Assembly (NCBI GenBank): GCA_977862235.1
Contig: OZ374557.1
Location: 2,294,001-2,358,000, forward strand
Length of the DNA stretch: 64,000 nt
Direction: 5' to 3'
DNA from: Dudresnaya verticillata
Lineage: Eukaryota
Shown here piece by piece: positions 3,001-50,104 of this stretch. How positions within the stretch are numbered: the first letter of the stretch is position 1; every line of letters starts with the position of its first letter. The translations under genes were made by a program, and so were the position numbers. The notes under the pieces were generated by a model that made no database searches, had not been told where the DNA came from, and saw nothing but the letters and a program-made list of their open reading frames with translations.

Positions 3001-3203
3001 CGTCGTTCTCTCTCTCTTCTGCCTCCGGCGCTGGAGCCGCTCCCACCGAAGGTGTACGCCGTGTCGGCTGGAAGGGGCCCCGTGCGCGGTCAGTGTTACC
3101 GCCTGTCATCGCTAGCGGCTCACCGGGTTGAACTTTAACGTTGGTGGATTTGCCAGAGGTGGAGCGAACTGTTGGTGTGAGATCCGGTGTTGGATACACC
3201 TGA
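1..3203 (+). mobile_element. Element E0: 3' internal part of a Ty3/Gypsy LTR retrotransposon (pol lies upstream of the window)
   Basis: Reverse-complement homologue of 50100-53250 in element E5, covering the post-chromodomain spacer and the antisense ORF. Homology ends at ...GGATACACCTGA (~3203). Confidence 0.85.
423..3199 (-). pseudogene. Antisense accessory ORF of E0 (fragmented, unknown function)
   Basis: ORF pieces 2006-3199, 1819-2124, 1395-1730, 1137-1355, 780-1121 and 423-767 are colinear with and highly similar to 50105-52883 (e.g. TAPDWCEEYEVTRWMAVPTPTVVVYFSNRF). AATAAA on the minus strand at 395-400. Confidence 0.85.
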
Positions 3204-3220
3204 AACTATGCAGGGGGTCG

Positions 3221-3667
3221 TGTGTAGCACGGAGTCAGCGCTTTTATTTCCTCGCCATAAATGTATCAAGACCGCGTCGACCGACGGACGGTCGCCTGGA
3301 ACGGCTCATTCGCCGTTGGCGCGAACACGTCATCGACGATTGGCCTACCGACGCGTGATCGCCATACCCCGCACCACGCGCGCCCGACGCGCTGTAAGGC
3401 ACAACGCTGTGGAGCGGGTCTGGATGACGCATCGGGATCAACCCGGTGTAAGGTGCTCGACTGTCAGTCTGGCCCGAATCCCGATTGAAACCGGATCCGA
3501 CATCCGGATCGGACATCGGGATCCGCTGTAATGAAGGCGCGCCTGTAATATTGCCGCCAATTGGGATCGGAATCCGGATCGCCTACAGCGCCGCGCAAGC
3601 GCGTTTCTGTAAGACGCGCACTTGTGGCGGCGTACAGCGGCTGCACCGCCCCAGGATGTGTCAGACG
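3221..3667 (+). repeat. Left part of an older LTR (LTR-X) interrupted by E1, preceded by PPT-like GGGGGTCG
   Basis: Same PPT/TG junction as E1 (AGGGGGTCG|TGT) and a GATCCG-rich block as in the E1 LTRs. Continues after the TSD at 16233. Confidence 0.65.
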
Positions 3668-4541
3668 TGTGGTAGAAGGGGGGTGAGCCCCTTTTTCCCC
3701 TCGGAGCGTACTATTAGACGTCTACCGACGGGCAATCGTAACCGCAGCTGGCGCGCGCGAACACGTCACGGACGGTCGGCTCAACGGCGCACGGACGCAA
3801 CCGCCGCCGGTTATCGCGGCTCACGCACTGTACGCCCGCGCGGCACGCATCCGGATCGCCCATCGGGATCCGGGAGGTGTAAGGAGTGTACTTGTAATGA
3901 TGGCCCATATCCGGATGGGATCTAGATCGGGCATCGGGATCAGATCGGGATGCGCTACAATGTAAGTCGTGCGCCGGTAAGGCATACCCGCGCGCCAGGA
4001 ATACTGGCAGGGATCGGGATCCGAATCCGGATCACCTCTACCAACGCACGCGCACGCCTGTAAGCCATTCCTTACCCGCCGGTGCGCGGCTGCATGGCGA
4101 CGGCGACTTGTCAGACGCACCGGGGCGCGACACGCGTCCCGAGTTCCCGCTCGCCACGCCGCGCCGCCGCAGCCCGCGTCGTAGCGATAGTATACTACGT
4201 AACCCGTCTGGAACGTTTAGTAAATCCCGGCAAGCCAGCCTCGGACCTGAAGGCCCTTCGCTAGTGCGTACTTCCCGTTACCAACGAAGGCAACTGCGCA
4301 GCTCCGCCCAGGCTTCCGCGTCCGGCTACGTCCTTGACGCGTCTCTCTCTCTTTCTCTCTCCTTTCTCCCTCTCTCCCTCTCTCTCCTTTCTGTTACTTT
4401 GTTCCACTTCTGCCGCCCAGGGCGTTTAAACGCCGCCCTCGGCGTGTTATCTACGCTCTTCCACATTCTCGCTACTAGCGCGCTACCCCCGGGTCCGAAC
4501 TACTCGGAGGTGCTACTCGTCGCTAGACGGTTTGCACCACA
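3668..4541 (+). repeat. E1 5' LTR
   Basis: Direct repeat of 15358-16227, roughly 93-96% identical by eye. TG...CA ends. Confidence 0.95.
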
Positions 4542-4543
4542 TC

Positions 4544-4560
4544 TGGTCTCCCGACCTAGA
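4544..4560 (+). promoter_or_regulatory. Primer binding site (probably tRNA-Tyr)
   Basis: TGGTCTCCCGACCTAGA 2 nt after the LTR. Its complement ends ...UCGGGAG-A-CCA (G72, A73 as in eukaryotic tRNA-Tyr). The same motif occurs at 48987-49003 on the minus strand. Confidence 0.75.
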
Positions 4561-4666
4561 ATGGTTCTACGTACAACGAGTTGTACCGTCGCGTGACGTC
4601 CTACAACCCATCGTCTGACGTTGCCGCTAATCTTCCGCTACGTTTCAGCAGATCTACGATTGTATA

Positions 4667-6530
4667 ATGGCCTCTAGACCACCAACAGTCCGAGGCCCAA
4701 GCTCAAGACGACCGTCATCGACGCCTGGAAGCATTCCCGCATCGTAGCTGTCGCACCCACCGATGACACCACGATCGGGGCGCCTCGTGAACCCGGAGAT
4801 CGCGTCGGCCTTCCCGACTACACCCCCAGCCCACGGCCACGCAGGCTCCCACGCGTCACACAACGGAGGAGAGTTACCTCCCCCGCCGATGCGCATCCCT
4901 GTTTTCTTCCGCACCTCAGTCCCAAGGGGATCGGCCCTCCACACCTACAGCTCCTACGTTAACTCGGCTGATACAGTACAAGCCGAGCAAGAGAGCGTTG
5001 TAGACGAAAGACAAGCCGACATCGCCGCGGAACAACCAGAACGTCCGGACCAACCATCCATCCCCATCAAAGACGATCAGGAGCACTCCGCGGAGCGCAA
5101 CATCGATGATGGCCCATTGACACCTGGGGCATGCTGCCCCACCCCCCACGGCAGTGCCGGTTGTTCACCGTCTAAGCCGAAGTCGCCAAGCCAAAGAGCT
5201 GGAAGAACGCCCAACCGGCCAATCCCCGAAAGCCAAACGCCAATGGCATCACCCTCGGCCGTCCGCGTGAGTAACGTAACGATACCACGCGAACAGATCC
5301 GAGAGGGATGCGTCTTGGAAGACGATGCTTTGCTTACTAGGTTCGCCGGTCTGCTGGACGACAGTGTCGGAGGAATAGCAAGTCGTCTATAGACGTTGAA
5401 AGAAGATCGGGACGGTGCCCTACAAGGGCTTCGCTCCGATCTCGACCGTCTATTGACGAGCCAAAACGCAGCCCAGGGTATAGGTACCCAGCCAATGCCG
5501 GCAGTATCGGTCCATTCGCACTCCGAACGTAGCTCACGCGAACGCTTTCAGCGACTGGTGACCCGCGTAGAGCGTCTTGAAACCGCCAAATGGCGCAACA
5601 GTCCACCGTTGGGTGACGAGAGCCCGTGCGAAGACCGTCACAGATGCAAGGATTGGAAGAGACGCCGCCGTAAGCTGCGTCATAGACGGAAGAAGAACCG
5701 TCATCGAAGTGGGGACTCATCCTCGTCCTCTTCGGACTCATCAAGTGATGGAGAGTCATCCGACTCTTCGTCTGAAGACGACGACTTCCCAGCTCTCGGC
5801 AGTGCCGCAAAGCCTCGCGGAAAGCGGTTCAAGGGGTGGAAGGAACTACGCCCCTCCAACCCCCTTTTCGATCAGTTACTATCGTATAGGACTTATCGTC
5901 TCCAAGAGGCAGGGCAGAAACGCTCAGGGCACGACACGGGTACGTTCAAGGACCATATTAAGCTCCTGGCGCTGACCATGAAGGACGCCGCCTTTAACGG
6001 CAGCGACCCCGTCATGGTCCTGTAATGCCTAACGCGATTCACGGATGAAGCAGACACGCTGGAGATGAGCGCAACCGAATCGTTTGTCGCACTGCCGTAC
6101 TTCTTGCGAGGTAAGGCAGCTACGCAATGCAGCTCCGTCAAGTCGATGTGTTCTCGCCATCGCGGCGGGGTGTCCTCGTATCCGGAGGGGGTACAGTACC
6201 TCCTCCGTACGTATGCTACGCCAGTGGCGATGTGAGAAGCTGTCCTCGGCCTACGTTTGACCGTCCAGAAGCAAGGCGAAGACGAGACGAACTATGGGAT
6301 GCGGCTGACTGGGGCACGTATTCGTTGCGGTAACGTTTATCCAGACTGAGAGAATATGAAACTGTACATCGACGGGTTAGACCCGTCGATCAGGTCACTC
6401 GTGGTTCGATTTCGAGAAGAAAGGCCAAGAGCGGAATTGTCATTTGAACGGGGGTCCACTTCGCACAGGACGAAGGGGACGCCAACTGCGCACGACACGG
6501 CAGGGGCGGCAGCGTGTCAACACGACGAGA
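4667..6530 (+). pseudogene. gag: E1 gag (in-frame stops and frameshifts)
   Basis: ATG 4667 is in frame with ORFs 4763-5392 and 5396-6025. LLSYRTYRL...FNGSDP matches E4 gag ALDYRTYRL...FDGTDP. Confidence 0.8.
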
Positions 6531-6599
6531 TTTACTGATACCGGCTCAAGCTGCACGCGCGTCGCGCGCAGCCATCGGCGATGCCCGAGGTGTACTGTG

Positions 6600-9500
6600 T
6601 TCACAGACGAGAGATGCAAAGCCTGGAGCGAGCGCTATGATAGCCGAGTCCTCCGTCGAGCTTTTCTGAGTTTTATTCGCATTGACGACATTCCGTTGGA
6701 AGCGCGATCACGCATCATGGTAAAGAGCCTCCTCTTCATAGCCGACACCAACAACAAGGCGATCCAGACAAGAGGTACCATCGACTTGGTCGTTCGTTTG
6801 GGACGGCGGGTCGTCAAGTTGGAACTGATCGTTTGCGAACGGCTCGCTACGCCGGTTTTACTTGGTTGCGACTTTTGCGACCGCTTTGTCGAAGCGATTT
6901 ATCCCGCGAAGTCGCGAGGTCTAATTGGACGACGGGAATCGTGTCCCTATAACGCGTCGCCCCCTGCGCAGACTCCCGTCGTATCCTCCATTACCAACGG
7001 AACACGAATAGGCAAGCCCGAAGGAAGGACGTCGCCCAAGATACGAGCAACAGAGCGTGCGATCATCCGGCCTAAGGCGCAGCAATGGATATCGGTGAGC
7101 ACCGAACGCCCCGGCGTCAATACTATTCAACCGTTCGGAACACTGTACGACAAAAAAGGTCTGGCCGTTACGAACGGGATCGCTCACATGGAGCCGCTAA
7201 AAGCGTTTTGCATTTTGGTTGCCAACTTCTCCCCCAACCTCAGGCACTGCCCAAAGGCCAAGTTGTCGCGACGGCGTTGCCGCATCCGACAGCATTGTTC
7301 CCCACTCACGTAAGTCTAGCCGATGTTTTGGGCCTCACCGAGGAACAGGCAGAGGAGGAGAAGGCAAACCAAGATTTCCGTTTTCAAACGAACGATGACA
7401 TTACGGCACAGCCGGATACTTTCATGAAGTCTATCAAGGCAACCACTGCCAAGCCTCCGTCCGTAGACGATTTGGACCTGGGACATCTCCCTGGCGAGCA
7501 TCAAGGCCGACGTGAGGAGATGTTACGCAAGTACGCGTCTATGTGGGACGGTTCGTTGGGAGAACGCCCAACCACGGAACACTACATAGACTTGCTTCCC
7601 GGCTCTAGACCGATATCGTCCCCGCCTTACCGAGCGCGGCCGAAGCAGAGACAATTGCTCAAGCGGAAGTGGATCGCATCCTGTGTCAAGGGGTCATCGA
7701 ACCCGCACAATCGACGTGGGCGTCACCAGTGGTCTTTTCCCCAAGAAGGACGGGATCCTCCACTTTTTGCGTAGACTACCGCCGTTTAAACGCAGTAACC
7801 GTACGGGATACGTACCAGTTTGCGCGTATTGTCGAGTTCATTGGCCGTCTAGGGGAGGCAAACGTCTTCAAAACCCTAGACTGTAACCGTCGGTACTCGC
7901 AGGTACCGATCAATCCGCGAGACCGCGAAAAGACTGCTTTCACGGGCCATGCCGGACTGTTCAGCGGTAAGCGTATGCCGTCCGGTCTCACAAACGCACC
8001 CGCTACGTTTCAACGAACGCTGGACATTCTGCTCGCTGGTTAAAAGTGGCGTTCGTGTCTCGTCTACCTCGACGACGTAATAGTCTTCTCAAGCGATATC
8101 GACAGCCATTTCCGTCACGTTGACGAGATCCTATCGACCCTACACCGAGCTGGGGTAACACTGAAGTTGACCAAGTGTGACGTCTTCACCCCGACGGTCA
8201 ACTTTGTGGGTCATTTCATACGTCCAGGACGGCTAGAAGTCGATCGAACTGTCACTGCCGCGCTACGCGAAGCCAAGCATTCACGGGATCAGAAAGAGCT
8301 ACGGAGCTTCCTCGGTCTGTGTAACGTCTACCGACGGTTTGTGTCGCGATACGCGCATGTCGCTGCACCCCTCAACAAGTTGTTGAATAAGGAGCAAGAC
8401 TTCCGGTTGTCACCGTTCGATGAGGTACAAGCCAAGGCATTCAGCACACTCGTCAAGGCTGTGACCAACCCGCCCACCCTGGCGTTACCACAGAAGGGCC
8501 TACTCTACTACGTCGATTGCGACGCTAGCGAGTAATAAATCGGCTGCGCTCTCTTTCAAACGCAGCCCGACGGAGAGCGGAAGCCATCCGGCTTCTGGTG
8601 TCGCTCGCGCACCGCTCCAGAGCGTAACTACTCAGTCTCCGAAAAGGAGTGCCTCGCAGTAGTATGGTCCGTCATGAAATTGCGACCTTACCTCCAAATG
8701 GAGGCATTCACCGTTCATACGGACCATTCCTCGTTAAGGTAGCTGATGGAAATCAGCGACCCCTCTGGACGCTTAATATGGTGGTGCCTTCGCCTTTCTC
8801 AGTTCGACTTCGTCGTGAAATACAAAAAGGGGTACATGAATACTCAGGCAGATGCCCTTTCGCGTCTACAGACGAAGGGGAAACCTTCGAACCCATTGAC
8901 GATGATATACCATGCTATCACGGAAGCTACGTCGAAGACGGGCATCAAACGTCAGAAGACGATCTGTCAGACGCCGAAGTCGAGGTAGGCTTCTCCGAAC
9001 GAGAGGTCGAATAGTTCGAACAAGTGTTGATCAACAACACGCCACCGGCGGATGAGGTAATCCTACGTCAAGTGATGTATGAAGAGTTGGTACACGCTCA
9101 AGGCAATAACCAATACTGTACCGAAATCAGGAAACGTCTGGACGACGGGAGCGCCTTACCGTTCGCAACCGATGAACAGGACCTGTTGGTCCGAGCAATG
9201 GAAGTCCGCCCGCAAGTGGTCGTACCCTCCGTGTTACGCGCTCGCTTACTCCACCTCCGGCACCACGCCAAGTCGGCACATGACAAGTTGGCAGGGCACC
9301 CGGGGGCGTAAGTTGTATCATACGCTTCGACGCGAATATTACTGGCCATAGATGCCAGGTGATTTCTATGCGACCGTCCGGAACTGCGTAACCTGTGCTA
9401 AGAATCGTATATTGCTGCGAAAGAACACCAAGCAATTGAAGTTGTTCCCGGCAATCGAGCCTCTCGAGTTCGTATCGATCGAAACTCTGGGCGAACTCAT

Positions 9501-11050
9501 ACGCACGAAGCGAGGAAACAAATTCCTACTCGTCATTGTGGCCCGCTTCTCGAAGCTGATCCGGACGGTGCCACTACGTAAGATTACGGCATTATAAATC
9601 ACTAATGCGTTTGTACGACATTTGGTCTTCGTGTACGGCCCCCAAGAAACTGTTGTCCGACAACGGACCACAGTTTGTGGCTAAGTTGTTTCAGGATATC
9701 TGCCGTCTTTTGGGAATGGAGAATCTCTTCACCAAGACGTACCACCCGCAATGAAATGGTAGAAAGATTTAATCGAACTATCCTGGCCTTGCTGCGTCAC
9801 TACGTTGCGGATCATCCGAGAGACTGGGACCTGTTCACGGATGCCTTGACATTCGCATACAAAACACAGTTGCATTCGTCTACGCATCTCGCTCCCTTTG
9901 AACTGGTGCTGTCTAAGCCAGCAGGACCACTGTCGTTTGAAACAGAACCGTCACTGTAAAGCATACCCATGGCGGGGCAATACTACACCAAGTGGCGAAC
10001 CTGGCTGACCGCACTGATGGGAACCTCTAAAGCCTCGTTAGAGAAACCTCAAGCACGTTACAAACGAAACTTTGATGCCCGATTAAGGAAATCGAAGGAA
10101 TCAATCGCCGTAGGCGACTTCGTATTCGCACGAAAAGAATAATTCGCCCGAGGCGGGAGCACTGATCGCGCGGAGCGGAAACATAAGTTGGCGCCAGTGA
10201 CGGACGGACCATATCGGGTAACTAACCATGATAACGAGACAGTAACCATCGATAAGGGACGTGAAGAGCGGGAACTTTTGTCCCGAGACCGCGTGGTCTA
10301 GGTGCCTACCCCACCGGGTCAGGCCGCCCCTCCAATCGTCGTGCCATCAGGCCCGCCTGAGGAGCAAGATGCAAACGCCCCCAATTCATAAGACGAGGGG
10401 ACGGCTACCCCAGATACGCCAACAGCGGGCCCGCAGGGTGACGCAGGAACTTCGTGTACTGCGGGAGATCCGCAAGAGCTTACGATTTTAACGTCACGCA
10501 GTCGTGGGTTGGCAGAGCTTTCGCCCTTTACCGCCGACCCCGACGACCGCCCATCGCAATCCGTGTCCGACGACGACAGTACCCCAGGGGTCGGACCCGT
10601 TTGGAACACGTCGCTACGGCACCGCCGATTGATTAAAATGCTTCCGCTGAAAGCGCGTCCGATAACGTAGACCTTCACCATGCAAACACGAAGCAAGGCT
10701 CTGCAAGAGATGGACTCGTCCCAAGACGCAGCAAAACGGTGGCCGCTGAACGAGCGTCCGAGGCCCAAGGCCAGCGCTTTCGGAGATCAACCCGTCGAGT
10801 ACGCTTCGCCGAACCAGCACAGACGCCCATCACGCAACGCGACGAACCGGTAAAGGCGTTGGAAGGGCACAAGTCCAAGCCGATCGCTGTGAGCGGGAAA
10901 GAATACGTTATCGAACGCATCGAGTCGCACGCGTACGCGGATGATGGTGAGATCCTCTACCGCGTCAAGTGGTTTGGATACCCCGCTTTAGCGAACACCT
11001 GAGAGCCAGTCTCCAGTTTGCCGTGATCACACGTCGCACGTTACCACCGC
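6600..11050 (+). pseudogene. pol: E1 pol: protease remnant, RT, RNase H, integrase, chromodomain
   Basis: VLLGCDF (protease C-terminus), [27 protein letters not shown] at ~8062, LRSFLGLCNVYRRFV, DAS, ERFNRT, and EYVIERI...YRVKWFGY chromodomain at ~10900-11040. Many stops and frameshifts. Confidence 0.93.
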
Positions 11051-12602
11051 CGAAAACGCACGCGCCTGCTGCCAAACATCGACAACGCGCAACGCGGCTA
11101 ACCCTAATCCGGAAACACCCCTGGAAGCGAATGGACGGACGATCGCGACCGCGTGCTCGAGTTACGGCCGCGAAAGGCGTGGACGCCCAACCCGTGGCAT
11201 GTGGACGCCGCCGCACCCTCTGTAGCGACGGACACGTGTGCGCATCATGGACGGACGTGGACGCAAGTCGTTGTGTCATAGACAGCCACGCGAACGGGCA
11301 CCTCGCAGCAGCCACCATACAGGTACCCTAGATAGGGGTGTGGTTGACAGTGGATCCAGATCGCAAATCGAGATCCGCCGCCCGTGCACATCGGGTAATA
11401 GGAGCCAAACGTAATTGGACAATGTTTAACTGGCAAACACGGTAGGGTGCGCTGTCCAGCAATCAACACGAGACGAACACAATCATGCCAAATGGCTGAG
11501 CAGGTGCTACGAGCACCAGCGACGACAGGCGCAATTGGCAACGCGCAACAACCGTCTCCAACGTCGAGGCGCCGACTCGCACCGCGGCCACGTTCCTGGC
11601 ACCATCACCCTTCCGGCCACGGCTGCGCACGAAAGCATATCTTCAACGTCTCCGAAGTAACTCTCCAAGAAGGGGCGCACCGACGAACCCACCGGCAAGG
11701 GGGGAGGTGGTTGAAGACGCAGTTGTCGTGGGTTCCGTGCACGATACGCCAACAAATCGCTCAATGACTCCGCCGCTGGCTGCGGACGTCGCGGCCACAG
11801 TCACAGGATGGAGACCATTTCCTACCCCAAAGAGGAACCTTAGAGACGAAAGGAGCAGCCACACCAAGGCGTCGAAGCACCTACCTCACCACCCTCGCTA
11901 TCTTCGCCAATGAAGCCGCACAAAACAATACGCTGTAATAGCGACGACGTGAGGGGCATAGGGGCTCAACCCAGCCCCACCTGCACGCAAACACGCCTAA
12001 GAAGCAGTGCGACACACGCACTACAAGAGCGCTAAGTCAGCGGAACCGGGTCTTCCCGAACAGCGTCTCCTGACTATCAAGACAATAACGTTTCACCACG
12101 AGAATCAAGATGCGCCAATCGCCGCATGTGCAACACGAAGAACAACGCTACTACAGTACAGCGGACAGTACCAACAAAACGCAGCCAAAGCGCAACGCGC
12201 GGCTAAGGCTAATCGCATCAAACGCCAACGCTACTGTAGCGGGAATCAAGAAAACGACGAAAAGTCGAAGTGGAACCAAGGGTTGCACCCTAATACCAAC
12301 GCGAAACGCGACACGGAAAGACGCTGACAATGGCCGACGTTTACTGGGCTAAGCAAATGGGGATAACCCCTCGCCCTCGCTAACGACCACTATAGCTACA
12401 TTAATTGTCAACGAAGAATGGGAATACTCCCGCCCATCTGCCCGAAGAGGAGCCGAAGGGCAACACAATACGCACTCTCGCGTCCGCTATCCGTTTCTGA
12501 AACGACATCAAGATTATTTCGTCGCAGACGAATTAACCGGCACATCCTCAGCAGCGTCCTTGGTGGACTCGCGCAAAGCCTCTTCATAGAGGTCGTCCTC
12601 GG

Positions 12603-14940
12603 TCATCGACAGTAAACGCGCGGCAGGAACAGGGGCGGGCCGCAAGAGTCCCGCCACTGCAACGGCTGGAGTGATTGCGAAAGGCCCGCAGGCGTAAAGG
12701 GTGTCTCATCAACCGCCTTCGGCGTCGTCGTGAGAATATCCGCCTCAGGCGATGAAGCAACAACACCCGCCATAGGTGCAGAGCTCAACTCCTCCTTCGA
12801 CCCAGCACCATCCGCTCTAGGTGCAGTGACCGACTCATTAACCGCCTTTGGCGTAAGTTCAGAAACCCCCTCGATCGGCGTCGTATCTTCACTCGCATTC
12901 GGCGTTATTGACTCTACGATCGTCACCGACGCATGAGCATCTGGCTCCTTTTGAACCGTCGACGACGTTATAGTAGCATTCGCTTCGCTCGCCGCAGGCG
13001 GTACAGTAATAATCACGTCTTTAGACGCTGGAGCATTCGCCTTAGGCAATAACGGCCTTCCTGCCACACCGTCGTTCGACACGGCGCCTATTAGAACAGT
13101 CGATTTCGGCGCGGGCCCACCCTGAGGTGGAACTGCAGCCGACAAGGATTGGCTCAATCACTCTATGGGCGAGCCGCTCAAACCGCTAGTAGCGACACTG
13201 GCGCCCTGCAACAATGCGAAAACTGTACGCCGCTGCTCTTCGGTCCAGACCGGCACACCGGGAGCCTTCCCTGAACCATCTACGACTCTCGGTGCTCCGC
13301 CTTCTGTAATCGCAGGCGGAGTGGCTCTGACACTGTCATAGACATTATGATGTCACCCTCGTCGTCCGCAACGGGCGCCGCAAGGTCCAAGGGCGCAACA
13401 GCGGTTACCCCGGTTGGCATAGCACCCGCCGCATGAGGCCCCGTGGACAACTTCGTGGACGGAACATCAGCTTCGTCAGCAGACCCAACCGCCATAGGCG
13501 TAGCGATAATCGTCCCAGACGAGTTCCCCGGTCCGCTGTTGGCGTGAAGAGCATCCTACGCGGCCATTAAGGCGCTCAAGTGAGGAGGAAAGGCACCGAC
13601 AAAGTCGCAGGTCCTATGCAAACCGCGCGGGTGATTACCCGGCGTGAAGCGATCGGTCTTGCAGTGGCGTTCCGCAATGTTCTTCGTCGTACGACGCTTT
13701 GTCCAAGGTTTATACCAAATCCAATCGCCACAGGCGGAATTAGTACGACTCATCGCGTAACGCGGACGATTCGCCTTACGGCGGATGTTGGCTAACGGCA
13801 CGGCAACCGGGGTGTTCCAATCGATCTCATCCGCAACAGCGCGAAGATCCCAGAACTCCTCGGAGTTCCTGGAACCACCAAACATTTCGACTAAGTCGAG
13901 GTCACCAAGATGGGCGACCACACGCGGTGGTAGATGATACATACGGAAGATGTCATACACCTCCCATAACCAAGCACCCGCCACGTTGGCGACCCACTTG
14001 GTTTAGAACACGATCCAATATCTAGAATACGGGTCGGTCATCATCTCGGAACCAAGATACGTGACACACGGGGGAGCGCTGCTGCGAAACCTTCGCATAT
14101 ATCGACCTCACGCCATATAGGCGGCATCTTCACAAAACAGTGAGGTAACTTACTACGCGCAATGCGGTCAACCTGCGTGTCCTAGTAAGGTACGAATACG
14201 CCCTTTTGGCGACGCGTTTTGCACTCCCAACGGATACAACGCTCCCAAAAGAACGTACCTGTCCGATGCAGATAACGAAAATCCGCTTTGAAGCGTACAC
14301 CTAAGAGGTAAGCCTCTTCCGAAACGCGAGGCTCGATTGACAGCCTCACCTGCTTCAGCGATAACCTCCCAAGACGAGCACCGTATTAGGGCTCGCCGAT
14401 TGTCCGGTATTGCCTCGCGTCAAAGTTGAAGATGGTCGGCGTTAATGTCGACCCGGGTTAACCCGTGAAGCGCCGATAGAAGTATGAGACGAACGGAGCG
14501 TGGACATCCGCACTTGATCGTTCCGCTCGCACCCAAAGCCATTTCGTAGGAACGCCACAGCGCAATTTCCACTCTAGCATCCAGAAGACGCCAAGGGGAA
14601 GGCCCCTGGCAAACATCCGCTAGTAGCGTAATGAGCTACCAATGCTTCTTCGCGCAAAGCCTCCAGTCGAACCACGGGGCCCGCGCGAAGAAATGCGCGT
14701 GATCGCGAGGATTCTTCCCGACAAAGTCGACAGGCGACGCGTAAACCGGCGCGGCCGAGGGCGCCGCCACCCGCATGCCATTGAATGTCGGCATAACGTC
14801 GACGACGAAAATATGTTTACGCCGCTGGAGATGAGTACACAAACGTCAAAGACGACTAATTTCCTGCGCCAACCGGCGAAAGCTTCACGACGCGCGCGTC
14901 GAAGACGATTACTGTTCAAGGCCATAGGCGATACAAACAA
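12603..14940 (-). pseudogene. Antisense accessory ORF of E1 (divergent, degraded)
   Basis: Manual translation of ~14150-13900 gives MPPIWREVDICEGFAAALPPCVTYLGSEMMT...YWIVF*TKWVANVAGAWL...RMYHLP. This aligns with the E3 core APSWWESYEVTRWLSVSMPSVVAYFSADLLT...LWHIFRSERAMLVLFSWL...RMYLLP and is followed by P/A/T-rich pieces. Outer limits are approximate. Confidence 0.7.
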
Positions 14941-15347
14941 CCCTGCGCCACTGGAGAAAGTCTCACAAAACGTATGTCAATGACGTTCGGTTGAAATGCC
15001 CCAGGCGAGGAAAAGAAATCCGCGTCAACGACGTTCAGTAGCGACGCCACAGACGATACACAAAGAGGGCAACGTCGCTGACGATTGGTTCGCAACGCCA
15101 GCAGGCGAGGGAGTCTGAACGGCGTTAACGACGTGGATCGTAATGCGTCACAGGCGATGATGTAGGGGCAGCGCAGGTGCAATAGCACGGGCAACGCGCG
15201 AAACAAGAGCGGAGTTCTTACGGCACAGCCGAGGTCGCAACACACACGCGGGCGCACCAATACAAGATGCAAAGGTGCAACAGCAGGCAAGGACGAAGCG
15301 GGAGTGCGCACGGCCGCAGATTGAGGGTCGGAAGGGTTCGCATTTTT

Positions 15348-15357
15348 GAGGGGGTCG
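15348..15357 (+). promoter_or_regulatory. E1 polypurine tract
   Basis: GAGGGGGTCG immediately before the 3' LTR TG. Confidence 0.8.
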
Positions 15358-16227
15358 TGTGGTGCAAGGGGGGTGAGCCCCTTTTTCCGCTCGGAGCGTG
15401 CCATTAGACGTCTACCGACGGGCAATCGTAACCGCAGCTGGCGCGCACGAACACGTCACGGACGGTCGGCTCAACGGCGCACGGACGCAACCGCCGACGG
15501 GTATCGCGGCTCACGCACTGTACGCCCGCGCGGCACGCATCCGGATCGCCCATCGGGATCCGGGAGGTGTAAGGAGTGTACTTGTAATGATGGCCCATAT
15601 CCGGATGGGATCTGGATCGGGCATCGGGATCAGATCGGGATCCGCTACAATGTAAGGCGTGCGCCGGTAAGGCATACCCGCGCGCCAGGAATGCTGGGAG
15701 GGCTCGGGATCCGAATCCGGATCACCTCTACCAACGGGCGCGCACGCCTGTAAGCTATTCCTTACCCGCCGGTGCGCGGCTGCGTGGCGACGACGACTTG
15801 TCAGATGCACCGGGGCGCGACGCGCGTCCCGAGTTCCCGCGCGCCACGCCGCGCCGCCGCAGCCCGCGTCGTAGCGATAGTATATTACGTAACCCGTCTG
15901 AGACGTTGAGTAAATCCCGACAAGCCGGCCTCGGACCTGAAGCCCCTTCGCTATTGTGTACTTCCCGTTAACACCGAAGGAAACTGCGCAGCTCCGCCCG
16001 CGCTTCCGCGTCCGTCTACGTCCTCGACGCGCCTCCCTCGTTCTATCTCATTTCTCCCTCTCCCCCTCTCTCCTTTCTTTGACTTTGTTCCACTTCTACC
16101 GCTCAGGGCGTTTACAGTCTGCCCTCGTCGTGTTACCTACGCTCTTCCACATTATTGCTACTAGCGCGCTACCCCCGGGTCCGAACTACTCGGAGGTGCT
16201 ACTCGTCGCTAGACGGTTTGCACCACA
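15358..16227 (+). repeat. E1 3' LTR
   Basis: TGTGGTGCAA...TTGCACCACA; direct repeat of 3668-4541. Confidence 0.95.
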
Positions 16228-16839: not shown

Positions 16840-18174
16840 TGTGGTGTAGTGAAAACCCACGAACGCCGTAACAGAAAGCTGGCCTGACTTTCCTACACGG
16901 GACGAGAGCGACACTACCTCCACGGGGTGGTAGAGCAGTTCACACCGAGACGGGAGAACAGCGAGTGGCTAACCGAAACGGATATTGGGAAGCAACAGAC
17001 AAGAGGGTGGTACAAGTGCCCGGACGGACTCCCTAACGGTGGTGTTGGTAGACCGCAACGGGCTCGGCGCGCGGAAAACCGTAAAGGAAAGGGCTACAGT
17101 GGGATTGGGGTTCAAGGGTTGCTTGCCCATTTACCCTAGTGTGGCATAGCTGTAAGACCAGCTGTGCCACGCACGCGCAGCTGTAAGACCAGCTGCGCCA
17201 CGTGTACACTGCTGTGCGCACGCTGTCAGCCGGTGGCGCCGAAGCCCCGCTGAACTGTAAGGAAGTGCGCAGTGGCGCCCGCGTGTGCACGCGTACGCGT
17301 GTGAAACTGAAACTCCCATATAATTTATACGTTTATTGTTTTGTAGTGTACAGCACCGTCTAGTGTAAGCGGCGGTCGAACGCCCTGCTGTCCTGCACTA
17401 GTAGTCGCCCCTCTGGGCTTCAGTAAACCAGGCAAGCCAGCCTACGCCAGGCTTGCCCTTTCTGCTTTGGGGTTCTTTTCCAGTCCTTCGCCCTACGGCT
17501 TCCCTCTTTCCCTAGCCGCCTAGGCTTTCCTTTTTCTTTCCCTACCGTCGGCTTCGTACCGCCCCACGACGGGGAAGCAGGGATCCGGCCGCTGCCGCCC
17601 GCGTACGGTACGCCCTGTGCGCGCTCAGGCTTCGACGCCGTTGATCCACGACCGTCCACGGCGCGCGCGGCCGACACCGCCGCTCTACCACCACAGCTAC
17701 CACCCTTCAAAGGGTCTGGGTGCGACTGATCGACTAGCGCAGCTAGACGTCAGTGCGACCTGACGTCTATGCCACACCTAGGATCCGCCGCGGTGCCGCC
17801 CTGGTATACAAGTCAGGGTGGCACCGAGCGGTCCGGTCCGTGGGGGCCAGACCCTAGTGGTTCGGTTCTATGGTGAAATCGGCCCTGCTGGTCCAATCTC
17901 TGGAACGGACATGCGCAGAATTCTCATTGGCTGGCGCACTACTCTACAAACTGTACAGATACTCACTAAAAATATATAATAAATACACAAATACTCCGCT
18001 ACGGTTGGTGCGCTCCACCTACAGTACAGCGATGCATACTAGTGCACATTAATGCGCACAAAACTGACACGGTTGCAAGTTGCCAGATTATCATCGTGGC
18101 GTATTGCCACATCATCCATTACGGTTGGCCCGCCGTCGGTGCGCCGCATGAGCGCCACGGCTCACTTCACCACA
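16840..18174 (-). repeat. E3 3' LTR (~690 bp net, interrupted by a solo LTR)
   Basis: TGTGGTG...CACCACA ends. 16840-17139 plus 17782-17838 are ~90% identical to 49009-49363, and the remainder resembles 49716-50039. Confidence 0.85.
17140..17776 (+). mobile_element. Solo LTR (637 bp)
   Basis: Terminal inverted repeats TGTGGCATAG...CTATGCCACA and TSD CCTAG (17135-17139 and 17777-17781). The homologous empty site is visible at ~49303-49307. Strand inferred from the pyrimidine tract. Confidence 0.9.
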
Positions 18175-18407
18175 GATCCCCCTCCTTAAACGGCGCCACG
18201 TCCTCCGGCGCCCACCGTCACGGATTGCCATCGCTTCCGCGCCCACACATTCAACCGATACGGCTAACGCTCTCAACTTTCCCTTCTCCTGCGTGCGCCT
18301 TCTTCCAATATTACAGGGGAGAAAAGCAAGCGCTCCCCCTCCCCTTTCAACTAACATGTCGTACCCGTGCGAGCACGGCGACGAGAGCGCCGGGCGCGCC
18401 TACCTTC

Positions 18408-21186
18408 ATGGATGCTTCTATGCAAGCACATGCCTCTTCCTCGGCGGCTGCGGCACGACCCACGACGCGTGGTCGTGCGGACGTCACCGCATCGGAAGCC
18501 GTGCAGGTACCATCAGCGGGCCGCGGCTGGTCCGTCTACAATCCGAATCGGTTTGCTGCTCACACAGCCACAGCGACCGCACGGGCAGGGAATGCAGTGA
18601 CCCGCCATGACGAAGAAACGTCGACCAAGCATGATGATGAGGAGGTCCGACGTGGTGGTGAGGCGCTCAAATTGGCGGACCCTCCATCAATTCCGTTAAG
18701 ATCGCCTTCGACACCGATATCAACGCCGGTGCGGAGTATGAGGGCGAGCCCGCATCCTGCTGTCAACACTCCGAGACGGACGCGTGTGCCAGCGCGAAGC
18801 ACTATGCCGGCCGCAAGCCCTTGGATGTCGATAGGGCGTGCCTGTAGCGGTGAGGGCCCTGCCCCAAGTGGATACTGGCCAGGCCACCATTTCTATCACC
18901 GTTCTGGGCGCCCGGCGAGATCCGATGCGGAACGGGGGAAGGTGACACCGCCGATGACAGTGTTGTACTTCATCGAGGGTTATCCATCCGTTTTGGAAGC
19001 GCGACGATACCAAGCCGCTTCGGAGCAGCCATTCAAGGCAAACCAGCGAATTGGTTTCGTTCCCAACCGGCGGGCGTTTGTGTGGCAACGCCTATGGGTC
19101 CATAGCTACTGCCAAGAGCGCACCACTATTGTTTCGGATTCGTTTTGGTACCGTTGCCACGGAGAAGTTGGGTATACCGCGAAGGTGAGCCGCTTGTTGA
19201 CCAAGGCGTTCCGTCTACGGGGTGCGCCGATCGGGGTGCAGTTCATCTGCTTCGACCCACCGTATGACCAAATGGTGTGTTCGTTCTACTATGCCGACGG
19301 GTGGAAAGACGAGGCGGCAACGGAACACCGATTTCGGACGCGCTACCGAGACGGAATGCATGTGGGCGCATCCATATTGCACACGTGGAATACCAAGCAG
19401 TTCTTCCACCTTCCGTATCGGATGCCACGTGAGCTCTACCTCACAGCTCCGTCGTGGTGGGAGAGCTATGAGGTAACCCGTTGGCTATCCGTGTCCATGC
19501 CTTCTGTGGTGGCGTACTTCTCCGCGGACCTGCTCACTGAGCGGGAGTCGAATCACGAACATCCGAACGGAGAGCGTCCCCTGAACCAAGATAAGCTCGA
19601 AGTACTTTGGCACATCTTCCGATCGGAGCGGGCAATGCTGGTGCTATTTTCGTGGCTCCAGGTTGCCTACTACGGAGTTCGGTACAATACCAAGTTATCC
19701 GACTGGCGGAGCTTCCCGCGTGACGAAGATGACCTACCCGGAGGAGACTGTAGCCGTATGTATCTACTACCCGTGACGTTAATCGCCCTAATTCGCCCAG
19801 TTGGCGTAGCCTATTTGGTGACGGGTCGGTGTATCCCCTCCATCGGGTTGAGCGTCTTTTATCCGTATACGGAGAGCGGGATTGGCAACGCACTCCGGGC
19901 TTCTTGGGGTATAATTGGGATGAGGACCGTGTCTTATTGGTGCCCCCGCATAGGCCCGGAGTGGGCGAGCCATATTTCCTTCATCGGGAAGATCCTCGTC
20001 CGGAATGGTTGGCCTTAGAGGTGCAAGCCCATCCGGGTTATGCGCCTCGCCAAGCATCAACGGAGGCGTACCGTGACGGTTTGGAAGGGGCCGAAGATTA
20101 GGGGAGTTGTCAGGAGACAGAGGGACGTTCGCGTGCAATCGACCGGCGCAATTCCGTCAGGGTGAGGCAGCACGAAGCTGGGCCCTTCTTGGAGTAGCAG
20201 GAGGAAGTCAGGCCCGTCGCACCTGTGGCAGTGGATATTGAGAAAGTAGCCGCTCCAGTCCTCCCAGTGTTCGCTACACCCACGTCGGGCGATATGGGTT
20301 TTGAGACTACTACCCCGTATCGGATAAGGCCCCGACGCCCATAGACGTGGTTGCGCCTGCTGTGGCGGTGCCCAAGCCCGCGGTACCATCCAACAAGGGG
20401 GTTTGGAAGGAGAAGAACGTGTCGGAAGCAGCGCCAGGTACTGTACCAGCGGCATTGTCTCCGGCGAAGCGAATACCTGCAGCCGCCGAACCGTTCCCGA
20501 CAAGTGCTCCGCTGCCGGCACTCACTCCGACACCAGTGGTGAGTGAGGAACCGAGCACCGTACCGGAAGGGGCTCCAAAACGCCCAAGTGCCGAAGAAAT
20601 TGGCGACAAGCCTTTGGCTCCCTTGTTGATTCAGGAACCGTTACGGAAAAGCGATATCGCCTCTCCAGAAAAGGATACGAATCCACCGCCGCGGAAGGAA
20701 ATACCTTCATCCAAGTCGGGACCATCCACAATGGTGGTTTCCTCAACGGAGCATTCAATCGAAGCAGGGCTTAGGGATAAGCCGTCCATATCCTCGAAGT
20801 TATAGCTTCAAGAAAATGAGGATCCGGCCGTCACGGTTCCGGGTCACTTAGCCGCTACGGAAAGCGGGTTACAGGTGCTACGGGGTATTTGCCGTTCTCG
20901 TACACAGCGCTTCCCATTGCCAGGATCCGTTCAGGAGGGGTCAACTTTAGCAGAGGGACTGATGGAGAAGGTGATTCATCTCCGCGCAGTGGTCCGTCGT
21001 CAGCGTCGGCGTATGGATAATGCGATGCGCACCTTGGGCGACAATACGCAGCGTACATTCCAATCGGATCCGGCTGGAGAACCCGACTTACGAACTGGGC
21101 AGGGGGCAACGAGGAAGATAGAGTTGTCCCCGCTCCGAAGCGGTGTCTCCGTGACTCTTAAAGTTGCAGTTCGACGATCTCCTTAA
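18408..21186 (+). pseudogene. Antisense accessory ORF of E3 (long open core, later frameshifts and a stop)
   Basis: ORF 18042-20018 (first ATG outside the LTR at 18408) plus 19829-20101, 20347-20805 and 20875-21186. Homologous to the E0 and E5 antisense ORFs. Confidence 0.85.
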
Positions 21187-21261: not shown

Positions 21262-24200
21262 TTACGGTGAGCGACGTGTTGGATTGGCACGTCGCCGTAG
21301 TTTACCTTTAACGGAGGTCTTTTTGTGTTTCCAATACCGGTAGATGAAATTTTGCGGCAATTCCTCAGCGGGCTCAAAAGTGTCCTGATCCGGAGGGTAA
21401 CCATACCAGCGGACTTTATATGTCATCCCAGTGGGTTCGTCGCGGTGACCGACAGTCTTTTCGATCACATATTCCGTATCGGCTTGCAATGGTTCCGTCG
21501 CGGAGGGCGTAATACCTTCTGAAGGAGGTAATGCAGTAGTACCTCCTGGAGGTGGTCATACTTCTCCATCGACGGTTGAGGGTGTGACAGGCGGAACCGC
21601 TACAGGTGTCGGTTGAACAGCGACTCCGATCGGAACTTTCGTAATACGATCGATACTGACGGCGATTAATACCCCTTCCTTGCGGATTTTAACCACATGT
21701 TCCGTTTTGGATTCCACTTCCTAAGGCCCCGTGGCCCTCGGAAGGAGTTCCTTCATTTCCTGAGCCACCTCACCCACGTCATCCGGTTTGCCTTCCAATC
21801 GGTTCCGTTCACGGCGTTCTGCAGGCCGCAAGTTATGAGGCGGCCGGTCGAGATATACTTGATCTACACTACGGATTGGGGGCCTAAAGCGCACCTTACG
21901 GTCAAACAGTTCCTTGGCCTTTTGCTGAGCCACTGTCTCCTTCGTGCGTGCTGTCTGGAGCGCATACCGTAAACGGCGCATGGTGCCTCGCTTCTGTAGC
22001 ACCGGGGTCATATGCCCTTCCGTAACGGTTTCTTGATGCTCGACAGGAGCCCCCGGTACAACAATGTCCGATGGGTGGCGTGTCAGCACCAAATGAAATG
22101 GTGTTATTTCCTTGATACGGTGTACCTGCATATTGTACGCATACGTCAACGGTTGCAGGTACAAATCCCAATTGGAGTGATGATCCTCAACGTAATGGCG
22201 CAAACGTTGGGCGATTGTCTTATTAAATCGCTCAGCTTGCCCATTTGTCTGCGGATGGTAGGCAGCGGTGAGTAGGTGCCTGACTCCGAGTAAGGAACAA
22301 ACCGCATCAAAGAACTCTGCGGTCCGTTATCGGTTAGGACAAATTGGGGTGCGCCATATGCATACACCCAAAAGTCCAGAAAGGCGTTAGCCACCACAAC
22401 GGCTGTTGTTGTCCGTAACGGAATACCGCGCGTCAGCTTAGAAAACCGATCGGTTATTACCAAAACGTATATATAACCCCGTTTTGTCTTCTGAAGTGGC
22501 CCGAGGATGTCGATAGCGGCAAACTCCAAAGGTCCGCTAGCGGGGAAAGTTTCATAAACCTTTGATTCCGAAAGCGGCTTCCCTTCGTCTTGGCGCAGGA
22601 GCGACATGTCCGAACGGATTCAAATACATCGTTGGCCATATGAGGCCAGTAATAATCCTGTCGGAGTGTACAATACATCTTAATTCCGCCTGGGTGACCC
22701 GATGTCAGGGTGTAGTGGGATAAATACAATACCCGTCCACGGAGTTCGCTTGGCAGCACCTTCTGCAGAGCACCATCCAATTGGGACTTGGGTACCAAGA
22801 ATCCGTTACGGTCATAGTCAAATTGTGATCCAGGGGAGCCTAACGTATCGGCCTAGAGACGACAGAAAGAGTCGCGGGCTTGCGCTTCGAGGAAATCCTC
22901 CCTGATTATTGTCTCATCCTTAACGTCGGATTCTTGGATTACAGTAAACCGTGACGGTATTGTGTCGGGCTTGTCAGGGGAGGCGGATGCACTTCCACTA
23001 GCGGGCTCCACGGCGCATACTACGTCATTTACCGTAGCGGTTTCTTGTGATGTGGCCCAATCGGTTAAATAAACTCCATGCTCATATAATTCGTCGGCGG
23101 TGTTTTCGGCGACAAAGCAAGGTATCTCTTCATCCAAAGGTCTATCGTCACTGCCATCCGTTCGGAGTCGCGACATCCCATCGGCGAGTTGATGTTTAAT
23201 CCCTGGACGGTATTGCACATCCAATTCAAATTCCGATAGGCGGAGCCTCCACCTGGCCAGGCGGCCAGATGAGTCCGCGAGGTTAAGGATCCATCGCACG
23301 GCATCGTGATCCGTTCGGAGAATAAACTTGTCGCCGTAATGGTATGGTCGGAGTGTTAACATGCTCTAGACCACGGCTAAGCATTCCTTTTCGGTTGTAG
23401 TATAATTTTTCTCCGCCCCGGCGAGGTGCCGGCTCCAGTATCCAATAGGAAGGTGATCGCCATTCGGTTGTTCCTGGAAAAGGACACAGCCGACTTGATG
23501 GTCACATGCGTCAGTGTCCAACGTATATTTATATCGGTGACGGGGTAGATCCAATATAGGTGGAGAGATGAGGCATCTCTTAAGTTCCTCGAAGGCTTCG
23601 TATTCCGTCTCGGATAATATACCGACCTCAAAGAGTGAGTTCTTGCCGGTTTTCTTATTCAGCGGCGCTGGAATCCGAGCGAAGTTGGGTACAAAGCGAC
23701 GATACACGTTTCACATTCCCGAGACGGACCGTAATTCCGTTTGGTTAGTCGGCGGCTTCGCAACCTTAACGGATTGGATATTCCGATTATTCACTTCTAA
23801 TTTTCCGGGACGGATAACATGCCCCGGGTATTGTACAGACGCGTTGAAGAAGTCACACTTTGACAACTTCAAAGTTGCCCCATCTTACCTATCGTCAAAG
23901 CGTAAGGAAATACTTCAGGTGGTGGAAATGTTTCGTAACGGTTTTTGAGTATAAGATTACATAGTCTAAGTGGACGAGGGCAAATTGCTATTTAAGCGTA
24001 GAAAGGATTATATCCACTGCCCGTTGGAAGGTTGCCGGTGCATTCTTCAATCCGAATGGCATTCTCCGAAAACGGTATAAGCCAAAATGGCTAGTGAAGG
24101 TAGTTTTGTCCCTTTCCTCTTCCGGAATATCGACTTGCGAATATCCGCTATTGCAATCCAGAGTGGTAAATACAGTAGCTTCCCCTAGGGAATCTATGCA

Positions 24201-24920
24201 TTCATCCATCCTGGGCAAGGGGTATGAGGCCCTAACTGTTACGGAATTGAGCCTTCTATAGTCAACTCAGAACCGCATGGTGCCGTCCTTTTTTGGAACG
24301 AAAACCACGGGACTGACCCACTCCGATGAGGCTGGCTCACTTGCCTTAGCAGAAAGCATGCATTCAATCTCTGTCTTTTCGAGATCTCGTCGCTTATGTA
24401 TGGCACGGTATGGGGCTTTGGTATACTGGCTTAGCTCCGGGAGTTAACTCGATGCGGTGCTTGGAAGTTTTAATGTTGCCAAGATCGCCACTCCACATCG
24501 ACTTGTATTCCTCGAGTAGGGTTAAAATCCGTTTATAGAGCGATGCTTCTTCTGTAACGATCTGGACTTGATCCGTCCAGTCGGTAGTATTTGTAGTTTC
24601 CGTTAAGGGTTTGCTTACTTCATTGTCGTGCGGGGATATGCTGCTGGCCTTTTCCAAGGTAAGGTTTGAATTAAATGATTGAATATTTCCTCCCCTCCTT
24701 AAATAGAGGTATACCGTGAACGGTAAAAATGGCAGAAGGGTCAGCAGTAGCGAGGCCCACGAAGGTAGATTGGGGCAATCGTACCGGCTTGTTAGAAAAA
24801 TTAGAGACCCAGATCCGAAACGGTTTGTGAGGTACAACATCCATAATACCGTTAGCCATTAACGTAAGGTGGTTAAAAGCCGGCTTAGGATGATTTTCTA
24901 AAAAGCATAACCCACCCATA
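21262..24920 (-). pseudogene. pol: E3 pol (RT, RNase H, integrase, chromodomain)
   Basis: MPFGLKNAPATFQR, YLDD decayed to HLDY (~23965), DTDACD, EKECLAV, HPG...C..C, IDILGP, LTDNG, ATGP, and EYVIEK..GH..YKVRWYGY..DTFEP chromodomain. Confidence 0.93.
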
Positions 24921-48834: not shown

Positions 48835-48986
48835 GATACCTTAACGGATCACAGCGGTTTTTCTTGCTTGTATATCCAATATTCCGTAACGGGTTGTCGG
48901 TACAGCCGGATTCCTACCGTGGCAGATTTCGACGGCTGTTAAGAGCCGTCACGGTTGGAAGAAATGTCTTCCAACCGTGACAGTGT

Positions 48987-49363: not shown

Positions 49364-50039
49364 TGTGGTGTAGTGAAAGGCACGCCTGTAAGGAGAGCTG
49401 ATCAGGCAATCCCAATAAGGAGTGATCTCACACGGCACCGGGGTGGTAGAGCTTAGTTCGTAGACCGAAGGGAGTACCTCGAGCGGCAAAACCTGTAAGG
49501 AGTAAAGGGACGCAACAGGCAAGGGTGACGGTACAGTGCCAGGACAGCTACACCGGGACGGGGGTAAGAGGAATCCGTGCACGGGACTGGCGAGGGAAAA
49601 CTGTGAAGGAGTATGAGGGTAAGGCTTAGGGTAAGTCACTTTGCCCAGGGTTGCGTACCCGTTTACTGTAGGACTCGCGGTGGCCACCCATTAATATACT
49701 GGGAGATACGCCCCGCGGTCCGGTCCGTGTGTGGGCCAGACCCCAATGGATCTGGTCCACCAGGTGGGTCCGGCCCTACTGGTCGCGGTCACCGTTGCGG
49801 ACATGCTCGGCATTCTCACTGGCCGGCTGATACAGCATTATTAAAATTACCTAATTACAAATAAAGCAACTACTTGGCTCCTATTGGTGGTGTGCACAGA
49901 CTCCAGCAGGGCATACAGTGCTACTGTGTCGCTGGACTCCCGCCTCGGCTTTTGGCTCGCGCTTAGCAGAGCGCGGGTTATCGACGGTCGCGCGTCGGCC
50001 CGCCCGCCATCCGCACTCCGAAACGGCCACTTCACCACA
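49364..50039 (-). repeat. E5 3' LTR (676 bp)
   Basis: Terminal motifs present; adjacent PPT TTTAAGGAGGGGGTC on the minus strand. Confidence 0.88.
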
Positions 50040-50104
50040 GACCCCCTCCTTAAATCGCGGCACGTCCTCGTGCGCCACAGCATGTCTTCTACAAATCCAC
50101 TCAG

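What the first reader, a model, noticed from the sequence alone, without database searches (positions are those of the whole stretch)
18408..21186. Conserved, unassigned ~900-aa protein encoded antisense in the 3' region of chromodomain Gypsy elements (4 copies, 3 divergent lineages)
Seen: E0 (423-3199), E1 (~12600-14940), E3 (18408-21186) and E5 (50105-52883) each carry a large ORF opposite to gag-pol, starting near the PPT and converging on the chromodomain. The layout is a disordered N-terminus, a ~330-aa Trp/Tyr/His-rich core (WPG..Y/H, PNRR..W...W.HS.C, ILHTWNT..F, AP.WW..YEVTRWL.V..P.VVAYFS, R.E.AM.VLFSWLQ, R.(Y/F).LP), a P/A/T linker and a basic amphipathic helix (clear in E0, E3 and E5). 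The core is recognisable at protein level even in E1, where I see no DNA similarity, which implies past purifying selection. AATAAA lies ~23 nt after the stop in E0 and E5. Known: plant Tat/Retand elements carry 3' antisense ORFs (PMD or Transposase_28 domains), but I see neither domain here. Inference: a previously undescribed accessory gene transcribed from the 3' LTR, possibly an anti-silencing or chromatin factor.
Basis: partly seen in the sequence, partly recalled or inferred. Interest (0 to 1): 0.85.

Follow-up and report, generated by a model that had tools for sequence, protein, structure and literature searches.

The report
Seaweed retrotransposon's backwards accessory gene
Four decayed retrotransposon copies in this likely red-seaweed DNA each carry, backwards at their tail, the broken remains of a real extra gene from an unnamed protein family; its core is predicted to fold into a shape with no match among solved structures, and it likely works in the nucleus to keep the element active.

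The parts
18408..21161 (+). E3 antisense accessory gene, broken: first ATG 18408; frame change near 19818; stop 20099; further frame changes in 20140-20340 (places uncertain); stop 20803; frame change near 21094; likely end TAA 21159-21161
18876..20011 (+). E3 conserved globular core (about 380 codons), 48% identical to E5 and 46% to E0
   Evidence: (family profile E 5e-65)
20860..21161 (+). E3 C-terminal basic helix and PAPKR tail
16840..18174 (-). E3 3' LTR (element sense is minus), holding a solo LTR at 17140-17776 with CCTAG target duplication
18175..18185 (-). E3 polypurine tract
21325..24916 (-). E3 pol remnant (RT, RNase H, integrase; chromodomain 21325-21471); 5' part of the element missing
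50102..52883 (+). E5 antisense gene, broken: conserved frame from CAG 50102, first ATG 50195, frame changes near 50867 and 51895, stops 51670 and 52122, end TAA 52881-52883
52906..52911 (+). AATAAA 22 nt after the E5 stop, the only one in the 3.2-kb region
49364..50049 (-). E5 3' LTR (49364-50039) and PPT (50040-50049)
53346..57636 (-). E5 pol remnant with chromodomain at 53346-53468
423..3202 (-). E0 antisense gene, broken: conserved frame from CAG 3202, first ATG 3109, frame changes near 2071, 1869, 1681, stops 1397, 1373, 1139, 782, end TAA 425-423; AATAAA at 400-395
3211..3667 (+). E0 PPT and first part of its 3' LTR (E1-type, no similarity to E5's LTR), interrupted by E1 and continuing after 16232
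12600..14630 (-). E1 antisense gene, distant family member: core match 14448-13694 with a frame change near 14078, linker to about 12600; start and end not fixed
3668..16227 (+). E1, the only element with both LTRs (3668-4541 and 15358-16227, 816 of 870 identical), AGACG target duplication, pol at about 7500-11000, chromodomain 10904-10999

Best explanation
This is the decayed third gene of a group of Gypsy retrotransposons of a likely red-algal host, lying antisense between pol and the 3' LTR and kept under purifying selection; its protein likely enters the nucleus and likely helps the element stay transcribed against host silencing. Shown: position, selection, an old family with intact members elsewhere, and the order disordered N-terminus / globular core / low-complexity linker / C-terminal helices / basic tail. 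Predicted: one compact core fold with no match among the solved structures searched. Inferred: an antisense promoter in the 3' LTR (possibly with a splice into the CAG|G just inside the PPT), nuclear import through the KR tail, self-association through the helices, and binding of the core to element DNA or chromatin. Because the gene is read from the far end, it could be made while gag-pol is silent.
For: Selection: dN/dS E0-E5 0.35 (95% interval 0.29-0.42) or 0.42 (0.35-0.51) over 903 codons, with every segment below 1; E3-E5 core 0.22-0.38. A plain DNA alignment gives mismatches of 120/104/222 by codon position, p 3e-15. Family: 36 of 37 phmmer hits score 40-120 bits against a profile of the window copies. 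Gracilariopsis chorda holds 4 near-identical sequences at 5 loci; one hit comes from a Gracilaria changii transcriptome. Layout in a second source: L001 reads PBS-LTR-PPT-antisense ATG, 82 nt inside the PPT. Fold: pLDDT 90, pTM 0.90. Nuclear: KR motif in the last 15 residues of 8 of 20 full-length homologues versus 1 of 411 background windows. Faster change than pol: E3-E5 core 48% versus RT/RNase H 76%; E1-E5 14% versus 52%. Analogy: Grande's antisense protein is nuclear and has its own promoter (PMC7264820); VANC and PMD are transposon-linked chromatin factors (PMC13547354; bioRxiv 2024.09.27.615353); TEs are silenced by H3K27me3 in C. merolae (as cited in bioRxiv 2025.02.11.637652).
Against: There is no functional, localisation or stranded expression data. 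No known DNA- or chromatin-binding domain or fold supports the role. Conserved arginines (7) are matched by conserved acids (8), which fits internal salt bridges or an active site as well as a DNA-binding face. E0 carries an E5-type gene beside an E1-type LTR, so the protein need not be matched to its own LTR sequence. 12 of 20 homologues lack the terminal motif, and E0, E3 and E5 have only a partial form (PPAKS, PAPKR, PPAKR). A retrotransposon context is shown for only one outside locus. The host is inferred from 2 named clusters of the 30 looked up.
Confidence: 0.4

Rival explanations
1. The protein is an integration or particle accessory factor. It would join the pre-integration complex and supply nuclear import or target choice alongside the chromodomain, as some retroviral accessory proteins do.
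For: NLS-like tail; present in all 4 elements whose 3' region is in the window; this role is proposed for antisense ORFs in PMC7264820.
Against: The gene moved between LTR lineages and changes far faster than integrase. A separate antisense transcript suits a regulator better than a particle part (inference).
Confidence: 0.2
2. The core is an enzyme of unrecognised fold that acts on nucleic acid or chromatin, like the methylase and oxygenase accessory genes of red-algal DNA transposons.
For: Near-invariant R47, H77, D92, R97, E101, R157, Y210, E233, D258 (P0033 numbering); a large single domain; red-algal transposons carry such enzymes (bioRxiv 2025.02.11.637652, sections 8 and 21).
Against: No enzyme motif by Pfam. 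The D258-R260 segment is missing in the E1/P0022/P0032 branch.
Confidence: 0.17
3. It is an RNA-level factor, a suppressor of small-RNA silencing or an export factor for element RNA; or the antisense RNA itself is regulatory and the protein secondary.
For: Arg- and Trp-rich core; convergent transcription would make double-stranded RNA (PMC7264820).
Against: Strong protein-level constraint shows that the protein matters. No RNA-binding family matched.
Confidence: 0.15
4. It is an env-like or movement-type membrane protein.
For: One central helix has TM-like hydropathy (at least 1.8) in 15 of 50 sequences. The Atlas feature search gave the membrane protein CLPTM1 at 0.88, a lead only.
Against: Antisense orientation. 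The helix holds a near-invariant Glu and scores about 1.0-1.2 in E1, E5 and P0058; both models give one compact confident domain. A C-terminal NLS-like motif is enriched. The Atlas search with P0006 gave no usable hit.
Confidence: 0.05
5. It is a captured host gene or a passenger from another transposon, of no use to the element.
For: Homology between E0 and E5 starts exactly at a CAG|G, as a captured exon might. The context of 35 of the 36 outside hits is unseen.
Against: Selection across lineages whose RT differs by about 50%, the same position in all copies and in L001, and no single-copy host form among the named hits.
Confidence: 0.03

Closest known systems
Antisense additional ORFs between pol and 3' LTR (aORF-3R): maize Grande gene23, rice RIRE2, Retand TRP28/PF04195 (PMC7264820, PMC11963269)
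   Same: Same position and orientation, kept in most copies, function unknown, nuclear role proposed; several pair a globular domain with long helices.
   Different: No TRP28 match in 50 sequences. Retand elements are non-chromovirus elements of flowering plants, whereas these carry a chromodomain and the named relatives are red algae.
brtn of Botrytis Boty/BcGypsy1 (PMC7264820; passage in bioRxiv 2021.04.13.439636) and the fungal antisense six-cysteine genes in this scan's unchecked notes
   Same: Antisense gene at the 3' end of non-plant Gypsy elements; domain plus long helix in the scan's notes.
   Different: No conserved cysteines here and a much larger core. The brtn sequence itself was not compared.
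Plant mobile domain (PMD-A of Gypsy elements; MAIN/MAIL1) and VANC DUF1985 anti-silencing domain (PMC5418596, PMC13547354)
   Same: Transposon-borne domain tied to silencing control; the best functional analogue. The similar size and aromatic richness are recalled, not from a call.
   Different: No Pfam match at E up to 10 among the families shown. Fold kinship is untested, since no AlphaFold DB was available and it is unknown whether the VANC21 structure is in the library searched.
Plavaka accessory genes PAG1-3 of red-algal DNA transposons (bioRxiv 2025.02.11.637652)
   Same: Red-algal transposon accessory genes that move between element families; PAG1 has no known domain.
   Different: They are described for DNA transposons. 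The window's own methylase-bearing region has no hit to this family. The PAG1 sequence could not be seen.

Membership tests
aORF-3R (antisense extra ORF of Gypsy elements) | Lies between pol and the 3' LTR | tested here: met
   E1, E3, E5 between chromodomain and PPT; E0 and L001 show the PPT/LTR side only
aORF-3R (antisense extra ORF of Gypsy elements) | Antisense to gag-pol | tested here: met
aORF-3R (antisense extra ORF of Gypsy elements) | Kept in most copies and conserved as protein | tested here: met
   4 of 4 elements with a 3' region in the window; dN/dS below 1
aORF-3R (antisense extra ORF of Gypsy elements) | Transcribed from its own antisense promoter | not testable with these tools
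   No reads to lay. A Gracilaria changii homologue comes from a Trinity transcript, with strand and promoter unknown
Retand TRP28 antisense ORF | PF04195 Transposase_28 domain | tested here: not met
   No hit in 37 proteins at E 0.05; not among the 25 of 43 families shown for 50 sequences at E 10
Retand TRP28 antisense ORF | Host element is a non-chromovirus Retand | tested here: not met
   Chromodomain above the Pfam cut-off in E1, E3, E5
PMD / VANC DUF1985 | Pfam sequence match | tested here: not met
PMD / VANC DUF1985 | Shared fold | tested here: inconclusive
   Not listed; AlphaFold DB absent; presence of VANC21 in the library unknown
Fungal antisense Zn2Cys6-like gene / brtn | Six conserved cysteines | tested here: not met
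   No cysteine among the conserved columns; the feature is taken from unchecked scan notes
env-like ORF | Same sense as gag-pol | tested here: not met
env-like ORF | Transmembrane segment | tested here: inconclusive
   Hydropathy at least 1.8 in 15 of 50 sequences
Chromovirus clade | Chromodomain after integrase | tested here: met
Chromovirus clade | RT groups with chromoviruses | not tested
   No reference RTs at hand; chromodomains arose several times in algal Gypsy elements (PMC12477816 passage)
Plavaka accessory gene PAG1 | Sequence homology to PAG1 | not testable with these tools
   bioRxiv supplements closed

The most novel reading that the evidence does not exclude
Red-algal Gypsy retrotransposons carry an ancient, exchangeable antisense gene for a nuclear protein with a new fold that disarms host (Polycomb-type) silencing: an independently invented, retrotransposon-borne counterpart of VANC, swapped between element lineages as a spliced cassette.
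Probability: 0.22. Interest if true: 0.85.

Novelty: new variant of a known kind. Interest (0 to 1): 0.62.

Why it matters
The role of antisense extra ORFs in Gypsy elements is an open question. This adds an independent family from another branch of eukaryotes, with intact natural members, a confident model and no recognised fold, so it can be studied directly. These proteins are annotated as host 'hypothetical' genes in Gracilariopsis, which inflates counts of red-algal orphan genes. If the protein counters silencing, it would help explain the LTR-driven growth of seaweed genomes, and it would be a retrotransposon-encoded anti-silencing factor, a role so far shown for the DNA transposon protein VANC.

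Tried and rejected
Searches that found nothing: No whole genome is held. No sequencing run was listed, which says nothing on expression. Word-indexed homologue searches with the E3 core found nothing at near or longer lengths; the family alignment gave 5 hits. Pfam gave nothing for the core (only coiled-coil families on the tails). PHROGs gave no hit below E 0.039. PDB sequences: 0 hits at E 1. Phage records: no match. Viral contigs: nothing in 4 scans.

Rejected: P0013 (bacterial surface protein, -2.8 bits); L002 (bacterial MAG, no core match); the CLPTM1 Atlas lead (0.88, no Pfam support, not repeated with P0006); a shadow of a sense-strand gene (the only other frame below 1 shares third positions and has 24-28 stops in the core).

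Inconclusive or not run: A profile of the C-terminal helices aligned poorly and found no copy. The tree (quick method, 37 rows, near-duplicates and fragments under 200 residues left out) puts E0/E3/E5 together (99) and E1 on a long, weakly placed branch near P0022/P0032. No oligomer prediction was obtained. Two 48-56-aa members of the P0032 cluster carry a ubiquitin-hydrolase label; this was not tested beyond the negative Pfam scan of P0032. The scan's notes had nothing by sequence or place.

Full report
Setting. The window is eukaryotic (no genome held) and dense in nested LTR elements. E1 (3668-16227) has two LTRs, 816 of 870 bases identical, and a perfect AGACG target duplication; it sits inside E0's 3' LTR. 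E3 and E5 run on the minus strand with RT, RNase H and integrase remnants. E1, E3 and E5 have a chromodomain above the Pfam cut-off after integrase. E0's pol lies left of the window. The host is inferred to be a red alga, because the only organism names among the family's hits are Gracilariales and the window holds a PF01555 methylase gene like the accessory gene PAG2 of red-algal DNA transposons (bioRxiv 2025.02.11.637652, sections 8 and 21 read).

Observation. A frameshift-aware alignment shows one reading frame of about 900 codons, antisense to pol, in E0, E3 and E5, with the first ATG 111-232 nt inside the PPT. Every copy is broken: E5 has 2 frame changes and 2 stops; E0 3 and 4; E3 at least 3 and 2. 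The pol genes are decayed to a similar degree (8 stops in the aligned E3 pol, 4 in E5), so the gene probably died with the element after insertion. E0 and E5 are 73% identical over 921 aligned residues; the E3 core is 46-48% identical to them. AATAAA follows the stop by 22 nt in E0 and E5 and is absent in E3. E1 has no DNA similarity to the others and none of 7 motif patterns. A profile made only from 37 outside homologues finds two abutting, colinear pieces on E1's antisense strand; the best unrelated hit in all six frames of the window scores -4.4 bits. Read through with X, E1 scores 52.9 bits against a maximum of 13.4 in 2000 shuffles.

Selection. Nei-Gojobori-type estimates with two transition weights give dN/dS for E0-E5 of 0.35-0.42 over 903 codons: N-terminus 0.46-0.53, core 0.27-0.33, linker 0.39-0.47, C-terminal helix 0.33-0.41, with all bootstrap intervals below 1. 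The E3-E5 core gives 0.22-0.38 with silent sites near saturation, against 0.05-0.12 for pol. Four of five control frames give values above 1; the fifth shares third positions and is full of stops. Because that alignment was codon-aware, I repeated the test on a plain DNA alignment: mismatches were 120, 104 and 222 by codon position, p 3e-15. Decay after insertion inflates all these ratios.

Family. phmmer with the E3 core over 1.84 billion representatives returned 37 proteins. Of these, 36 score 40-120 bits against a profile of E0/E3/E5 and one is false. I looked up 30 of the 37. One cluster is Gracilariopsis chorda 'hypothetical protein' with 4 near-identical sequences at 5 loci, one is a Gracilaria changii Trinity transcript, one is a JGI cluster of hypotheticals, and 27 carry no name. 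Intact members run from about 480 to 955 residues, with the same order of parts as the window copies. A metagenome scan with P0058, from the branch nearest to E1, gave one locus, L001. It reads, on the strand opposite the gene, PPT AGGGGGTA, a 619-bp TG...CA LTR and a primer-binding site of the same TGGTCTC type as E1; the gene's ATG lies 82 nt inside the PPT. This is the only outside locus whose context I saw, and it shows no pol.

Structure. AlphaFold2 on P0033 with 40 sequences gave block pLDDT of 91-98 over nearly all of residues 31-330, a disordered linker and three lower-confidence C-terminal helices. The core alone (P0020, 50 sequences) gave pLDDT 90.2 and pTM 0.90: mostly helical, with one 29-residue central helix. 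The window's own copies were not folded. Family, sequence and fold searches named no relative of the core; they are listed under Tried and rejected and do not prove that the fold is new. Conserved positions are Arg, Glu/Asp, Trp, Tyr and Pro, with one His and no Cys. A KR-type motif ends 8 of 20 non-redundant full-length homologues, against 1 of 411 background windows; its reading as a nuclear localisation signal rests on recalled motif knowledge.

Cassette exchange. E0's gene is 79% identical in DNA to E5's, yet E0's PPT and LTR are E1-type (62-68% over about 600 nt; score 112 versus at most 16 in shuffles) and show no similarity to E5's LTR (score 14), which is E3-type. E0-E5 similarity starts abruptly at TCAG|GTG, 10 nt inside E0's PPT. 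The 31 codons from there to the first ATG differ at 5, 3 and 10 sites by codon position, a weak sign that they are coding. The simplest reading is a recombination between lineages at or next to a splice acceptor. The splice is untested. The exchange argues against a strict match between the protein and its own LTR.

Mechanism. Best reading (0.4): a nuclear accessory factor made from an antisense transcript that helps the element against silencing. Shown: gene, selection, family, layout. Predicted: fold, nuclear tail. Inferred by analogy: promoter, self-association, chromatin target. The core's faster change relative to pol fits a conflict with the host, but also fits looser constraint. Rivals are an integration or particle helper (0.2), an enzyme of unrecognised fold (0.17), an RNA-level factor (0.15), an env-like protein (0.05) and a passenger (0.03).

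What is known. Antisense ORFs between pol and the 3' LTR are described in Grande, RIRE2, Retand, PvRetro13 and fungal Boty, with unknown function and nuclear localisation for Grande gene23 (PMC7264820, parts 1-2 of 3 read, covering the main text). Retand elements nearly always carry TRP28 (PMC11963269, first fifth and passages read). PMD occurs in Gypsy elements and host silencing genes (PMC5418596, passages). VANC resembles MAIN in structure (PMC13547354, section 10 and passages; bioRxiv 2024.09.27.615353, passages). brtn is mentioned in bioRxiv 2021.04.13.439636 (passages). Algal Gypsy chromodomains arose more than once (PMC12477816, passages). Ten full-text searches listed no paper describing such a gene in red-algal Gypsy elements. 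Repbase, most subscription journals, the Chondrus genome paper and bioRxiv supplements (which may hold PAG1 and a curated Bostrychia Gypsy family) could not be seen, so a prior annotation is possible. The scan's own unchecked notes describe a different, six-cysteine antisense gene in fungal Gypsy elements.

Verdict. A genuine, apparently undescribed domain family in a known architectural slot: a new variant of a known kind, interest 0.62.

Noticed in passing
window 53759-57760 and 59999-64000: Inverted duplicate of E5 pol, 99.975% identical over 4002 bases, cutting off E5's 5' end; a very recent fold-back or an assembly artefact.
   Followed up: no
window 40342-43412 (-), with 32126-33133 and 37768-38721: PF01555 N6/N4 DNA methylase ORF with a 358-aa ORF upstream, near DUF7869 and TIR-domain ORFs; resembles the methylase accessory genes of red-algal giant DNA transposons.
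   Followed up: partly
window 45810-49363 (-): E4: gag-protease fragment with a 5' LTR piece 90% identical to E3's LTR; E5's 3' LTR abuts it, so E5 probably inserted into E4's LTR.
   Followed up: partly
window about 58850-59670: E0/E1-type LTR sequence inserted within E5's gag.
   Followed up: partly
window 18263-18316 (+): CTAAC, a pyrimidine tract and AG upstream of E3's ATG look like a 3' splice site on the gene's strand; untested.
   Followed up: no
window 53079-53236: Two 84-bp repeat units between E5's antisense stop and chromodomain; E0 shares part of this spacer.
   Followed up: partly
window 11050-12450: 1.4 kb in E1 between the chromodomain and the antisense gene with no long open frame and no family match; unexplained.
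   Followed up: partly
L001 223-841: One LTR flanked by a PBS on one side and a PPT on the other (tandem elements, a circle or a collapsed assembly), with TATATAAAAG facing the antisense gene.
   Followed up: partly
window 27045-27527 and 29877-30467: Pieces of probable host genes: PCI/eIF3m-like and class 3 lipase.
   Followed up: no
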